63,604 bases of DNA, filler included, from Collodictyon triciliatum (GCA_043381765.1; 19 parts of 19 records of this genome joined end to end with filler, not necessarily neighbours in it), one strand, 5' to 3'; numbered from the whole stretch's first letter, positions 1 to 3,347 are shown. Notes: generated by a model from the letters alone, not told the origin. Translations and numbers: made by a program.

Positions 1-105
1 ATACATACATACATACATACATACATACATACATACATACATACATACATACATACATACATACATACATACATACATACATACATACATACATACATAC
101 ATACA
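1..105. repeat. (ATAC)n microsatellite; most host contigs begin or end in similar simple repeats
   Basis: Read directly. Other examples are 6415-6596, 10043-10150, 34316-34416, 50928-51140 and 63512-63604. Confidence 0.95.
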
Positions 106-178
106 CCAAAGAAAAAATGCATATGTTTTGTTGATATACAAGGAACTGTCTTAAAAGGCGAGATATTAAATTGCATAC

Positions 179-503
179 TTCCCAAGGCCGAGCCGAGCAG
201 GATGATTACAAAGCTCTCTGGGATGGCATGCAGCTTCGAGACAAATAAGAGATACAGTAAAAAGATTGCCAATGTCAGTGTATTCAAAGTCATCACAACA
301 CCCCAACTAGCTCTCGCCTCGCAGTTGCCGCCGGCAGCGCATAGTTCGTACTCGCATGCGGTATGATTTGAAGTCCCATCAGCACGAAGGCTTGCCGAGG
401 AGGATGAGTCGATGAGATCGATCTCAAGAAAAGGCAGGAGGAACACCAAAACAACAACCACCAAAAGCAAGCGAGTCAGCCACTTTGTGACTCGGTCTTG
501 CAT
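179..503 (-). CDS. Na+/H+ exchanger (SLC9/NHE, CPA1), first exon; gene truncated by contig end
   Basis: Manual translation: MQDRVTKWLTRLLLVVVVLVFLLPFLE (signal peptide) ... LAIFLLYLLFVSKLHAIPESFVIILLGSALG, then a GTATGC donor. PES-x-x-x-I-x-LG is the N-terminal NHE TM motif. Confidence 0.75.
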
Positions 504-959
504 GAATGAGTATCTCCGCATTCGTAGTCCCTCGTTCATTTGGACGCCGTCCACAAGTTCTTCTTTGTATGTGTGTTCGTCTGTGAGCGTTTGTTTGTCT
601 GCCTGCCTCCCAAGAAGAGACCGCCCTGAAGCAAGCAAATCCTAATGAGTGTATCATCTTGGTTGCTGGGCTATTTAGAAGCACAAGGTCAGGCCAACCC
701 CCCGGCTGCGCTTTATTGAACAAGAGGCCGCAATAGTACGACTGGCCGCCTGCTGACAAGAAGCTCGCTTTGCTTCCTTTCAATATATCCCTGTTTGTTG
801 TTTTGACAATTCGCGGTCAACAGCCGCGCGCCACATCTACTGCTTGTGCCCTTCAATCAAACCTCTGTGATATGCTTTGCAGATATGGTTCTCACAGCTT
901 CCACTGCTCCACCCTCCGCGAGTTTCCCGAGACAAGAATAGTGCAATGAAAAGATTTTG

Positions 960-1109
960 TTTTTCGTGGGTGTCAGTTTATCCTTAATTCTGAAGGAGAA
1001 TACTAACCTTTCGATTGGTAAACATGGTCCGCTAGTATCCAAGGTCTCACCACTTTTTTCACAAAGATTATGTAGTGGTGAAGGCTGCCAGGAAAGACCC
1101 AACAGCCTA
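960..1109 (-). ncRNA. Candidate Fanzor omegaRNA scaffold (3' of the ORF)
   Basis: Three consecutive stems directly after the Fanzor stop: 1047-1054/1074-1081, 998-1005/1033-1040 and 981-985/993-997. The position matches the known Fanzor/TnpB guide RNA location. Boundaries are uncertain. Confidence 0.5.
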
Positions 1110-3008
1110 TTAGTTTTTTAGAGAGAGGTGTATACAAGTTTTTTGAAGGATTGAAAGAACTTTCTTGGGTATATTATTAGCGCTGTTTAAGTCCCTTGTC
1201 AAGAATACATTTTGTTTGCTTTCTGGGTGATTGCATTCTTTCTATATGAGACATCTATACCTTTTTTTTTTTTTTGATTCCCTTTCAGTGTCATATATTC
1301 CAGTTCTTTTTCGCAGTTGCAGCACATCCTAGAGGTTCTAAATTCATCTACACTTACCGTTTCAAAATGTTTGGATACTATTTTTCGTAATCCGCATCCG
1401 ATTGTTGGCATAAAATGTTTCATCAGATTTTCTGCTCCAGTCTCCACGTGCCAGTATAACACTATCGCCGATTGTCTTTTCGATTCGGTCCATAAACAAT
1501 TGTTCACTTCTTTTTGTATTAACATACTGTCTCCATCCCATCTTTCGAAAAGTTACGAGTTCATAAAATCTGGGATATTCTATCTGGTATCTTGGTTTCA
1601 TAGATACATATTTTCGGATTTTTTCATAATCGACCGTGCATGAATTATGTTTACTCAGGTCTGTCTCTAAATCGATGTAAGATACTCTTGATGTCTCAAA
1701 CTGCTGATTCTCTTCAAAGGTCATGTGACTAAAGAAACATCACTTTGTAAAAATCTGTTGCCATGCATATCCCTGAAGCTACGTTCTCTTTTCTTTTTTT
1801 TTCTCGCGCAAGAGTATTTTGTGATTAAGAGATTTACTATCATGTCTTCTTTGGTGTGCCGTGTAGCATGATTACTTACCTGTCTCGTCAACCATGTAAA
1901 CAAAATTAAACTTGCCTGTGCCCACTCCATCAACTATTTTTTTTTTCGCTAATAAAGATAACTGCTCTTCGGAAAGTTCATCTATATAAACACAATCTTG
2001 GGTTTTGATTATATTTGGATTTTGAATTTGAAATACCTTTCTTTTCTAATAATAATGACACCGCCAACCCGTCTGTTTCTATCATGTATTTAAAATTGTA
2101 GTCTCTTCGATGAAAGACCCTCTTCTTCATTTCAAAGAAGTCATCCCATAGGGTCTCTTTGCATCCTGATATATTCTTCAGTAATGTTTTTTCATAAATA
2201 CTAATAGAAATATCAGACATACGTTATCTGGAGTAATATGACATGTTGTATTGTTAGTTCTTATAGGGATTGGTTGAAAAAGTTTGGTTCCAATGTACTC
2301 AAGAATGCGATTATGTAAATCAGACATGGTATGTACTTACTTGGATTGACTTTGACATCATATTCGATACCTTTTACAATATCGCTGGGAATGATACGAT
2401 ACAAATGGATTATAGCCAATCCTGTATATTGTTCCGGTATTTCGAGTTTCTTGAAGATGGCTTTTTTTTTCAACTTTCGTAACTCTGCCTTTTTAACAGC
2501 TTCAGTAATATCCTCATCTTTAGTAACTGTTTGATATATAAAGCACAGTAACCTCTTTACAAAATGTTCCTTATGTCATTATGACAAGCTGTTAACATTT
2601 GCTTCGCCAAGTACGGTAATGCATGAGACAGTCTGACCAACGGAAAGCGTTCTTCTCGGGACAAATGGAATCGAAAATCATTGACATCAAAAGCCATCAT
2701 GTCTTAACCCATTTCTGGTATATTTTTTTTTAAACTTGCTGGTCTATCTTGTGAAACTATTCCGACAGTCTTTAAAGCGTACATAGAAAAATTTCATCGA
2801 TTGTTGGAAGTTGTTGTGATTTTAATCTCTAACATCTTGCAAACAGATAAGTGTCGGTAACCAAATTATGACACAATAGAACCGCATAGTTAATTTTGTC
2901 ATAGTCATCCGCATTCTTTACAATCGACTTTAGAGACGTTTTCACATTTCGATAGCCTGGTTTTACAGACTTTAGATTCTCAAACTCAAGACGTTTTCTT
3001 TTCTTCAT
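1110..3008 (-). pseudogene. Fanzor1 (eukaryotic TnpB-like RNA-guided endonuclease), frameshifted and with in-frame stops
   Basis: Collinear fragments: MKKRKR..YRNVKTSLKSIV; LPTIDE; MIETDGLAVSLLL; RuvC-I region IVDGVGTGKFNFVYM (degenerate GxDPG); YTAHQRR; FRKMGWRQY; GDWSR; MKHFMPTIGCGLRK; RuvC-II plus zinc finger VDEFRTSRMCCNCEKEL; RuvC-III TRDLNSANNI. No introns. Confidence 0.88.
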
Positions 3009-3196
3009 CTGAAAGTCTTTGTTTTACTTTTTCTTTAGAAAACTACCTAGTTTTCAATTTTAATAAAATTTTTAATAAAACTTTAGGCAATCAGTCAATT
3101 TGATAAAAAAAAAAAAGCTGCACAAAATCAATTAGATAAAATGAATCATCTACCGAGGCTTTCAAAGTGTGCGCATTGTGGCAAACAAACACGCCA

Positions 3197-3235
<39 letters not shown>

Positions 3236-3247
3236 TTTACAAAAAAC

Positions 3248-3347
3248 NNNNNNNNNNNNNNNNNNNNNNNNNNNNNNNNNNNNNNNNNNNNTTAATTAAT
3301 TAANNNNNNNNNNNNNNNNNNNNNNNNNNNNNNNNNNNNNNNNNNNN
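3248..3347. other. Artificial contig spacer (N44-TTAATTAATTAA-N44); 18 such spacers split the window into 19 unrelated contigs
   Basis: The same linker flanked by N runs recurs at about 3292, 6641, 9987, 13333, 16679, 19767, 23113, 26462, 29807, 34461, 37806, 41152, 44497, 47843, 51185, 54527, 57868 and 61207. It has stops in all six frames. Confidence 0.98.

What the first reader, a model, noticed from the sequence alone, without database searches (positions are those of the whole stretch)
1110..3008. Fanzor1 RNA-guided nuclease relic embedded in host DNA
Seen: an intronless broken ORF of about 630 codons with all Fanzor1 motifs in order, including the relocated RuvC-II Glu next to the zinc finger (VDEFRTSRMCCNC) and RuvC-III RDLNSANNI. 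It shares a contig with a spliced host NHE gene, so it is integrated in the eukaryote. The RuvC-I Asp has decayed (GVGTGK instead of GxDPGK). Known: Fanzors are eukaryotic OMEGA nucleases carried by transposons and giant viruses. Inference: this is a dead copy of a Fanzor family that may have intact relatives in this lineage.
Basis: partly seen in the sequence, partly recalled or inferred. Interest (0 to 1): 0.82.

Follow-up and report, generated by a model that had tools for sequence, protein, structure and literature searches.

The report
Dead Fanzor1 nuclease gene copy
This is a broken, non-functional copy of a Fanzor1 RNA-guided nuclease gene left by a mobile element next to a cell's own ion-exchanger gene, an ordinary kind of genomic fossil whose intact relatives sit in environmental DNA and giant-virus genomes.

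Summary
On the minus strand, window 3008 to about 1070 is a full-length but wrecked Fanzor1 gene. Ten successive reading-frame pieces match, in order, a profile of 30 full-length relatives (E 4e-26 to 4e-3); none of the other 2521 six-frame ORFs of the window scores below E 0.1. That profile matches the three solved Fanzor1 proteins at E 1e-72 to 6e-98 and no Fanzor2 or TnpB. Against the closest intact relative (P0157, 648 aa) the relic is 61% identical over residues 1-633, with 4 in-frame stops and 10 frameshifts and no introns. The RuvC-I Asp is Gly, and one zinc-finger Cys is a stop. The Glu beside the zinc finger and the RuvC-III Asp survive. The copy shares a 3.25-kb contig with the first exon of a Na+/H+ exchanger gene. 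The window, however, is 19 short contigs joined by linkers, and no read data bridge the junction. Many diverged copies occur in one public run. The sister clade lies in giant-virus contigs, inside a 3.3-kb Tc1/mariner-type element. Ordinary: a new member of a known kind.

The parts
1070..3008 (-). Fanzor1 pseudogene. The start codon at 3006-3008 is kept. 3008-1105 aligns to residues 1-633 of intact relative P0157 (61.4% identity), and a C-terminal tail is recognisable to about 1070.
1911..1928 (-). RuvC-I motif, read GVGTGK. The GGC at 1920-1922 (Gly) stands where all 30 relatives have the catalytic Asp, and ACA (Thr) stands where they have Pro.
1313..1351 (-). VDEFRTSRMCCNC. The alternative RuvC-II Glu (GAA 1343-1345) is kept, and so is the first zinc-finger CxxC (1313-1324).
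1233..1253 (-). Second zinc-finger knuckle, read C-L-I-stop-K-E-C. The TAG at 1242-1244 replaces a nearly invariant Cys (C564 of P0003, C587 of P0157).
1170..1196 (-). RuvC-III motif RDLNSANNI. The Asp codon GAC at 1191-1193 is kept.
2829..2831 (-). In-frame TAG where P0157 has Tyr60. The other in-frame stops are TAA 2704-2706, TAA 1872-1874 (Lys380 in P0157) and TAG 1242-1244.
1145..2783 (-). Span that holds the ten frameshift places of the best protein-to-DNA path: 2783, 2577, 2314, 2198, 2007, 1793, 1737, 1424, 1279 (inside an A14 run) and 1145.
   Evidence: other copies carry extra letters at 2312 and 1424 (table 4)
1013..3044 (-). Stretch on which diverged copies from public runs lie (85-99% alike). 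At 3033-3044 contigs of other copies go on with different letters, so this copy is cut or interrupted about 36 nt upstream of its ATG.
   Evidence: tables 1, 7, 8
183..539 (-). First exon (119 codons) of a Na+/H+ exchanger-like host gene, followed by GTATGC at 177-182. The rest of the gene lies off the contig.
1..105 (.). (ATAC)n microsatellite at the contig end.
3248..3347 (.). Artificial linker N44-TTAATTAATTAA-N44 that ends this contig.

Best explanation
Window 3008-1070 (minus strand) is a dead copy of a Fanzor1 gene. Fanzor1 is the eukaryotic and giant-virus branch of the TnpB-type RNA-guided DNA nucleases. The gene arrived as cargo of a DNA transposon that inserted about 500 nt upstream of a Na+/H+ exchanger gene in a eukaryote, probably a freshwater protist. 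It then decayed neutrally and now makes no protein: the frame is broken 14 times, the RuvC-I catalytic Asp is Gly, and a zinc-binding Cys is a stop. It belongs to a family with many diverged copies. Shown here: homology, the lesions, the neighbouring host exon, the many diverged copies, an intact close relative, and the giant-virus sister clade inside a Tc1/mariner-type element. Inferred: that a transposase moved it, that the ancestor was an active RNA-guided nuclease, and that the host is a relative of Diphylleia.
For: Ten pieces in order match the family profile at E 4e-26 to 4e-3, against no other hit below 0.1 among 2531 ORFs. The profile matches three solved Fanzor1 proteins at E 1e-72 to 6e-98. 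Fragments of the relic alone have Fanzor1 structures as their top PDB hits (PpFz1 E 0.0016; SpuFz1 E 0.49, weak). P0001, the 228-residue read-through with X at stops, finds 483 proteins at E 0.001 or better and 65 at 1e-10 or better. The intact relative P0157 (648 aa) keeps VGVDPGK, NEFRTS, the CxxC pairs and RDFNSANNI. The relic is 381 of 621 aligned codons identical to it, with 4 stops and 10 frameshifts. At two of those frameshift places (2312/2314 and 1424) contigs of other copies carry the extra letters (table 4). In the tree of 48 rows, relic plus P0157 has SH-aLRT 100. The relic's end branch is 0.67 against 0.20 for P0157, as expected after loss of constraint. In run X1, 315 contig pieces lie on the element (32 at 99% or more, 63 at 95-99%, 135 at 90-95%, 85 under 90%), with up to 15 contigs over one place. 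The host exon is supported. The sister clade (SH-aLRT 94) is P0003, L001 and L003. L001 and L003 share only a 3.3-kb unit with about 33-nt terminal inverted repeats, which holds a 346-aa DDE_3 plus HTH transposase (PF13358, E 1.3e-13) and the Fanzor1 gene.
Against: No transposase remnant and no terminal inverted repeat were found on this contig or elsewhere in the window. No guide-RNA structure could be shown downstream: the fold z-score is -0.99 and there is no Rfam match. Pfam itself gives only a sub-threshold hit for one piece (Cas12f1-like_TNB, E 0.028) and none for P0157. The contig is short and comes from a fragmentary assembly, and the junction with the NHE exon is not bridged by any laid record. 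One frameshift lies in an A14 run and could be a sequencing error. The sister relation to the viral clade is below the starred level (94), and most rows of the tree have no known organism.
Confidence: 0.9

Rival explanations
1. The gene is intact, and the breaks are sequencing or assembly errors in a low-quality contig.
For: The assembly is highly fragmented: 19 contigs of about 3.25 kb joined by linkers. The frameshift at 1279 sits in an A14 run. Other copies carry extra letters at 2312 and 1424.
Against: Four in-frame stops are base substitutions at aligned residues, among them Tyr60, Lys380 and a zinc Cys. Most of the frameshift places I read are not in long homopolymer runs. The catalytic Asp is Gly. 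The relic's tree branch is more than three times that of its intact sister.
Confidence: 0.04
2. The gene is functional and is read through introns, a variant genetic code or programmed frameshifting.
For: GTAAGT occurs at 1872 and near 2340. Published Fanzor genes can hold introns (PMC10530073, passages).
Against: The protein alignment runs on without intervening DNA at every break, with 8 extra codons in total. TAG and TAA both occur in frame on the best path, and TGA occurs on the alternative single-frame path. Ten frame changes of 1-2 nt cannot be spliced out. The neighbouring NHE exon reads normally by the standard code.
Confidence: 0.01
3. The Fanzor relic is not in the host chromosome. 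Either the contig is a chimera, or the relic belongs to a co-assembled giant virus or another organism.
For: The closest clade with known origin is in giant-virus contigs. Relatives of P0158 occur at 79 IMG/VR loci. No laid record bridges 841-1013. Another contig of the window holds a phage-tail-fibre-like ORF, so foreign DNA may be in the assembly (weak).
Against: The relic and the exon are contiguous, with no N between them. A decayed, multi-copy gene is typical of a cellular genome rather than a virion genome. No relative of P0157 or P0022 was found in IMG/VR.
Confidence: 0.08

Closest known systems
Fanzor1 nucleases with solved structures: Spizellomyces punctatus SpuFz1 (8gkh), Parasitella parasitica Fz1 (9cf0), Guillardia theta GtFz1 (9cer)
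   Same: There is full-length homology through the family profile (E 3.2e-94, 5.6e-98, 1.1e-72) and through the intact sister P0157 (E 4e-23 to 2e-28). The relic has the same order of RuvC-I, the Glu beside the zinc finger, the zinc finger and RuvC-III.
   Different: The relic is not a working gene: 4 stops, 10 frameshifts, RuvC-I Asp changed to Gly and a zinc Cys lost. Sequence identity to these three proteins is low, and direct hits of the fragments reach only E 0.0016 to 1.
Fanzor1 elements with an IS630-Tc1-mariner transposase in the giant endogenous virus of Chlamydomonas reinhardtii, and a Fanzor fragment on host chromosome 17 (bioRxiv 10.1101/2024.09.03.611062; passages read)
   Same: Both involve a Fanzor1 lineage carried in giant-virus genomes beside a Tc1/mariner-type transposase, with full, Fanzor-only and degraded copies and a decayed fragment in the host genome. 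Here the viral sister clade shows the same layout.
   Different: The host lineage differs, since the NHE neighbour is closest to a Diphylleia rotans transcript. Relic and viral copies are only about 35-45% identical in protein, so no recent virus-host exchange is shown. No virus of this host is known from my calls.
Partial Fz loci and 'ghost' elements of S. punctatus (Saito et al. 2023, PMC10432273; passages read): 42 loci with full-length (19) or partial Fz genes
   Same: Both are multi-copy families in which many copies are partial or degraded.
   Different: In S. punctatus the element ends and the guide RNA are defined. Here neither end nor the guide RNA could be defined.

Membership tests
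Fanzor1 (TnpB-type RNA-guided nuclease of eukaryotes and giant viruses) | Full-length sequence homology to established Fanzor1 proteins | tested here: met
   The relic's pieces match profile A1. A1 matches solved Fanzor1 proteins at E 5.6e-98 to 1.1e-72. P0157 matches the same three at E 2e-28 to 4e-23.
Fanzor1 (TnpB-type RNA-guided nuclease of eukaryotes and giant viruses) | RuvC-I catalytic Asp (GxDPGK) | tested here: not met
   Gly (GGC 1920-1922) stands at the column that is Asp in 30 of 30 relatives.
Fanzor1 (TnpB-type RNA-guided nuclease of eukaryotes and giant viruses) | Alternative RuvC-II Glu just upstream of the zinc finger (the rearranged catalytic site; PMC10530073, passages) | tested here: met
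   VDEFRTS is present. The Glu aligns with E530, invariant in A1, seven residues before the first Cys. That the canonical TnpB Glu position is the GDWS stretch is recalled, not tested.
Fanzor1 (TnpB-type RNA-guided nuclease of eukaryotes and giant viruses) | RuvC-III Asp (RDxNA) | tested here: met
   RDLNSANNI is present. The Asp aligns with invariant D581.
Fanzor1 (TnpB-type RNA-guided nuclease of eukaryotes and giant viruses) | Zinc finger with four Cys (CxxC ... CxxC) | tested here: not met
   Three of four Cys are kept. TAG at 1242-1244 stands at C564.
Fanzor1 (TnpB-type RNA-guided nuclease of eukaryotes and giant viruses) | Open reading frame able to give the protein | tested here: not met
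   4 in-frame stops and 10 frameshifts.
Fanzor1 (TnpB-type RNA-guided nuclease of eukaryotes and giant viruses) | Guide (omega) RNA encoded at the 3' end of the gene, up to the element's right end | tested here: inconclusive
   The fold of 1005-1260(-) has z -0.99, and 34 of 200 shuffles fold as well. There is no Rfam match on 1-3247 apart from the microsatellite. No aligned copies were available for a covariation test.
Fanzor1 (TnpB-type RNA-guided nuclease of eukaryotes and giant viruses) | Carried by a transposon (ends and/or a transposase) | tested here: inconclusive
   No inverted ends or transposase were found in the window. The viral sister clade sits in a 3.3-kb unit with inverted ends and a DDE_3 transposase.
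Fanzor1 (TnpB-type RNA-guided nuclease of eukaryotes and giant viruses) | RNA-guided DNA cleavage | not testable with these tools
   This needs a bench assay, and it is moot for this broken copy.
Fanzor2 / prokaryotic TnpB | Closer sequence match to Fanzor2 or TnpB than to Fanzor1 | tested here: not met
   Profile A1 finds no Fanzor2 or TnpB chain in the PDB at E 0.01 or better. Beyond the three Fanzor1 proteins it finds only LaTranC, at about 0.002. A Fanzor2 structure is published (PMC11832414, abstract). I did not confirm that the PDB copy holds it.
Na+/H+ exchanger (Pfam PF00999), the neighbouring exon | Homology to a protein that carries the Na_H_Exchanger domain | tested here: met
   183-539(-) matches P0156 at E 1e-27, 53% identity, 91% covered. 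P0156 has PF00999 at E 2.1e-60. The exon alone has no Pfam or PDB hit.

The most novel reading that the evidence does not exclude
The host is a diphyllatean or other CRuMs-type freshwater protist, a deep-branching supergroup for which I found no paper that mentions Fanzors. In it, a Fanzor1/Tc1-mariner element family shared with giant viruses has multiplied and still has active members, with P0157 as one of them. That would give a new compact natural RNA-guided nuclease and a case of exchange of selfish DNA between virus and host outside green algae.
Probability: 0.2. Interest if true: 0.45.

Novelty: new member of a known kind. Interest (0 to 1): 0.22.

Why it matters
On its own this copy matters little. 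Decayed Fanzor copies are expected wherever the family has been active, and thousands of Fanzors are catalogued (3655 unique sequences in PMC10530073, passage). Its value is as a pointer. It marks a multi-copy Fanzor1 family in what may be a little-studied protist lineage. It leads to an intact 648-aa relative (P0157) that could be tested as a nuclease. It also ties that lineage to a giant-virus-borne Tc1/mariner plus Fanzor1 element. A practical point follows for the scan: this window is a chain of unrelated short contigs, so 'same contig' arguments across it are unsafe.

Tried and rejected
- **Own genome:** none is held, so copy number and intact copies in the assembly could not be searched.
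- **Short-fragment search:** the 117-aa piece found nothing in the word-indexed protein search.
- **Pfam on single pieces:** one sub-threshold TNB hit (E 0.028) and otherwise chance hits.
- **Introns:** rejected. GTAAGT at 1872 is in frame, and the alignment is continuous across the breaks.
- **Variant genetic code:** rejected. Stops of more than one kind occur, along with frameshifts.
- **Other copies in the window:** none, by blastn or tblastn.
- **Element ends:** no inverted or direct repeats stand out on 1-3247, only poly-A/T matches. The viral element's end sequence has 0 matches in the window at up to 3 mismatches. Viral transposase against the window gave only E above 2.
- **Metagenome contigs:** two scans, with the 125-aa piece and with P0022, found no relative.
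- **IMG/VR:** scans with P0022 and P0157 found none. P0016 gave one weak locus.
- **Sequencing runs:** no RNA holder is listed. All four holders have small shares (0.05-0.11).
- **Laid runs:** places 120-943 have no cover in X1 and only scattered pieces in X2-X4. No record bridges 841-1013, so the junction is neither confirmed nor refuted.
- **3' RNA fold:** not better than shuffles.
- **Earlier findings of the scan:** nothing by place or by sequence.
- **Two large ORFs on other contigs:** no close relatives in IMG/VR.
- **Subfamily 1a-1d:** not assigned, because no named reference sequences were available.
- **Paper supplements:** closed, so the published host lists (tables of PMC10530073 and PMC10432273) could not be checked for this lineage.

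Full report
**What the window is.** The 63.6-kb window is not one contig. Eighteen copies of the six-frame stop linker TTAATTAATTAA, each flanked by 44 N on both sides, divide it into 19 pieces of about 3.25 kb. The finding lies on the first piece, window 1-3247. That piece starts in an (ATAC)n microsatellite and ends in a run of T. Nothing beyond 3247 can be used as context for it.

**The observation.** The gene is on the minus strand. Three-frame translation shows the quoted motifs: GVGTGK (1911-1928), VDEFRTSRMCCNC (1313-1351) and RDLNSANNI (1170-1196). To test whether this exceeds chance, I read the longest single-frame stretch (1362-2045, minus strand) with X at its stops. This gave P0001, which I scored against 1.84 billion representative proteins. 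It found 483 proteins at E 0.001 or better, 65 at 1e-10 or better, and many of 580-760 aa.

Thirty full-length hits were aligned as A1. Among the invariant columns are the Asp of GxDPGK (D372), a Glu seven residues before the first zinc-finger Cys (E530) and the Asp of RDxNA (D581). The four Cys are nearly invariant. A profile of A1 was run against all 2531 stop-to-stop ORFs of the window's six frames. It matched ten minus-strand pieces between 3023 and 1113, in order, over profile positions 1-593 of 620, at E 4e-26 to 4e-3. The best unrelated ORF scored E 0.13.

**What family.** Profile A1 matches three solved Fanzor1 proteins:
- Parasitella parasitica Fanzor1, E 5.6e-98.
- Spizellomyces punctatus Fanzor1, E 3.2e-94, over positions 4-604.
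- Guillardia theta Fanzor1, E 1.1e-72.

Nothing else scored below about 0.002, and no Fanzor2 or TnpB chain appeared. Pieces of the relic on their own also have Fanzor1 chains as their top PDB hits. These hits are weak: E 0.0016 with the DEFRTS..C..CE stretch aligned, and E 0.49. Pfam sees only the Cas12f1-like TNB (zinc-ribbon) domain. Nineteen of the 30 relatives match it at E 0.01 or better, the best at 1.6e-09, and the relic's piece scores below threshold at E 0.028.

**How broken it is.** The last word-indexed search found an intact, much closer relative, P0157 (648 aa, E 1.2e-54). P0157 keeps VGVDPGK, NEFRTSKLCCNC, the second CxxC and RDFNSANNI. It matches the three Fanzor1 structures at E 2e-28 to 4e-23.

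A protein-to-DNA alignment that allows frameshifts places window 3008-1105 on residues 1-633 of P0157. Of 621 aligned codons, 381 are identical (61.4%), and there are only 8 extra codons and 12 unmatched residues. The best path holds these lesions:
- **In-frame stops (4):** TAG at 2831 (Tyr60 in P0157), TAA at 2706, TAA at 1874 (Lys380) and TAG at 1244 (a zinc-finger Cys).
- **Frameshifts (10):** at 2783, 2577, 2314, 2198, 2007, 1793, 1737, 1424, 1279 and 1145.

An alternative path through the poorly conserved linker trades the two shifts at 1793 and 1737 for two more stops, TAG and TGA. Either way there are 14 lesions.

Because the alignment is continuous across each break, these are not introns. 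The GTAAGT at 1872 is the in-frame GGT AAG TAA. No change of genetic code can rescue ten frame changes.

Independent support comes from public runs. At two of the inferred frameshift places, contigs of other copies carry the extra letters. One is C behind 2312, seen in all such contigs of X3 and X4 and in 87.5 of 141.1 depth units in X1. The other is TG behind 1424, seen in 35.3 of 134.7 in X1 (table 4).

The RuvC-I Asp is Gly and the next Pro is Thr. In the tree the relic's end branch is 0.67 against 0.20 for P0157.

**Surroundings.** Downstream on the same strand, 183-539 is an open exon that begins with ATG and is followed by GTATGC. It is 53% identical over 91% of its length to the N-terminus of one protein in 5.8 billion. 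That protein is P0156, a 582-aa product of a Diphylleia rotans transcript in EukProt, and it carries the Na_H_Exchanger domain at E 2.1e-60. The exon alone is too short for Pfam or the PDB to recognise. The Diphylleia match is a lead to the host lineage, not proof.

**A family of copies.** Four public runs held small shares of the stretch. When they were laid, run X1 gave 315 contig pieces on the element at 85% to over 99% likeness, with up to 15 contigs over a single place. Two freshwater metagenomes (X3, X4) and X2 gave 13-73 pieces each. Pieces reach down to 1013. At 3033-3044, contigs of other copies go on with letters unlike the window (table 7). This copy is therefore cut or interrupted about 36 nt upstream of its ATG.

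Short database ORFs add to the picture. P0006 and P0012 are 74% identical to the relic, and P0022 (291 aa) is 61% identical. P0006, P0012 and P0022 look like pieces of further copies. No record bridges the junction with the NHE exon.

**Relatives in giant viruses.** The clade sister to relic plus P0157 (SH-aLRT 94; relic plus P0157 itself 100; 48 rows) holds P0003 and two IMG/VR loci, L001 and L003, from contigs of 254 and 173 kb. L001 comes from a giant-virus MAG.

L001 and L003 are alike only over a 3.3-kb unit with about 33-nt inverted ends. That unit holds a 346-aa DDE_3 plus HTH transposase (PF13358, E 1.3e-13) and the Fanzor1 gene. In L001 it lies beside a ribonucleotide reductase small-subunit gene. 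A more distant branch, around P0158, is found at 79 IMG/VR loci.

This layout has been described for the giant endogenous virus of Chlamydomonas, together with a degraded Fanzor fragment in the host genome (bioRxiv 10.1101/2024.09.03.611062, passages). Partial Fz copies are also described in S. punctatus (PMC10432273, passages).

**What could not be shown.**
- No element ends or transposase were found on this contig.
- No guide RNA could be shown.
- No open copy was found in the same organism.
- The junction could not be checked in reads.
- No Fanzor1 subfamily could be assigned.
- No paper in the library holds both 'Fanzor' and 'CRuMs'. None of the ten listed papers on Diphylleia, Collodictyon or CRuMs mentions Fanzor (10 of 71 listed). 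Supplementary host tables were closed.

**Verdict.** This is a genuine but dead Fanzor1 gene copy from a multi-copy mobile family, apparently inserted beside a host gene of a freshwater protist. It is a new member of a known kind, and its interest is low.

Noticed in passing
window 3248-3347 and 17 further places: The window is a chain of 19 contigs of about 3.25 kb, joined by N44-TTAATTAATTAA-N44 linkers. Neighbouring genes across a linker are not truly linked.
   Followed up: yes
window 16737-19415 (+): An 892-aa open frame fills one whole contig and has no Pfam hit. Protein-language-model features are nearest to phage (Uroviricota) tail-fibre or baseplate-like clusters (score 0.93, 163 shared features, a weak lead). 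It may be phage or bacterial DNA in the assembly. No close relative was found in IMG/VR.
   Followed up: partly
window 19825-23067 (-): A 1081-aa open frame, rich in coiled-coil-like repeats, spans another whole contig. It has no Pfam hit and no close IMG/VR relative.
   Followed up: partly
window 23472-25937 (-) and 58120-60582 (-): Two long uninterrupted frames of about 820 aa. One has Na_Ca_ex (E 1.4e-40). The other has CitMHS (2.9e-62) with two TrkA_C domains.
   Followed up: no
window 50151-50449 (+) and 52381-52451 (-): A signal recognition particle RNA (Metazoa_SRP model, 125 bits, full length) and a tRNA gene.
   Followed up: no
window 29807-30139 (-) and 40314-41159 (-): Two different contigs carry closely similar open frames (both start ...FFTDTAV.KLLCHKNQLPAKFTV...). 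They may be alleles, paralogues or a repeat.
   Followed up: no
L001 1631-4952; L003 1625-4951: A 3.3-kb mobile unit in giant-virus contigs, with about 33-nt inverted ends, a DDE_3 plus HTH transposase on one strand and an intact 634-aa Fanzor1 on the other. L001 and L003 are 74% alike within the unit and unlike outside it.
   Followed up: partly
L006-L084 (IMG/VR): Relatives of P0158, a 654-aa Fanzor1, occur at 79 distinct loci, most of them on contigs named as giant-virus MAGs.
   Followed up: no
window 2-74 (-): The mir-297 Rfam hit (43 bits, gathering score 90) is the (ATAC)n microsatellite, not a microRNA.
   Followed up: yes
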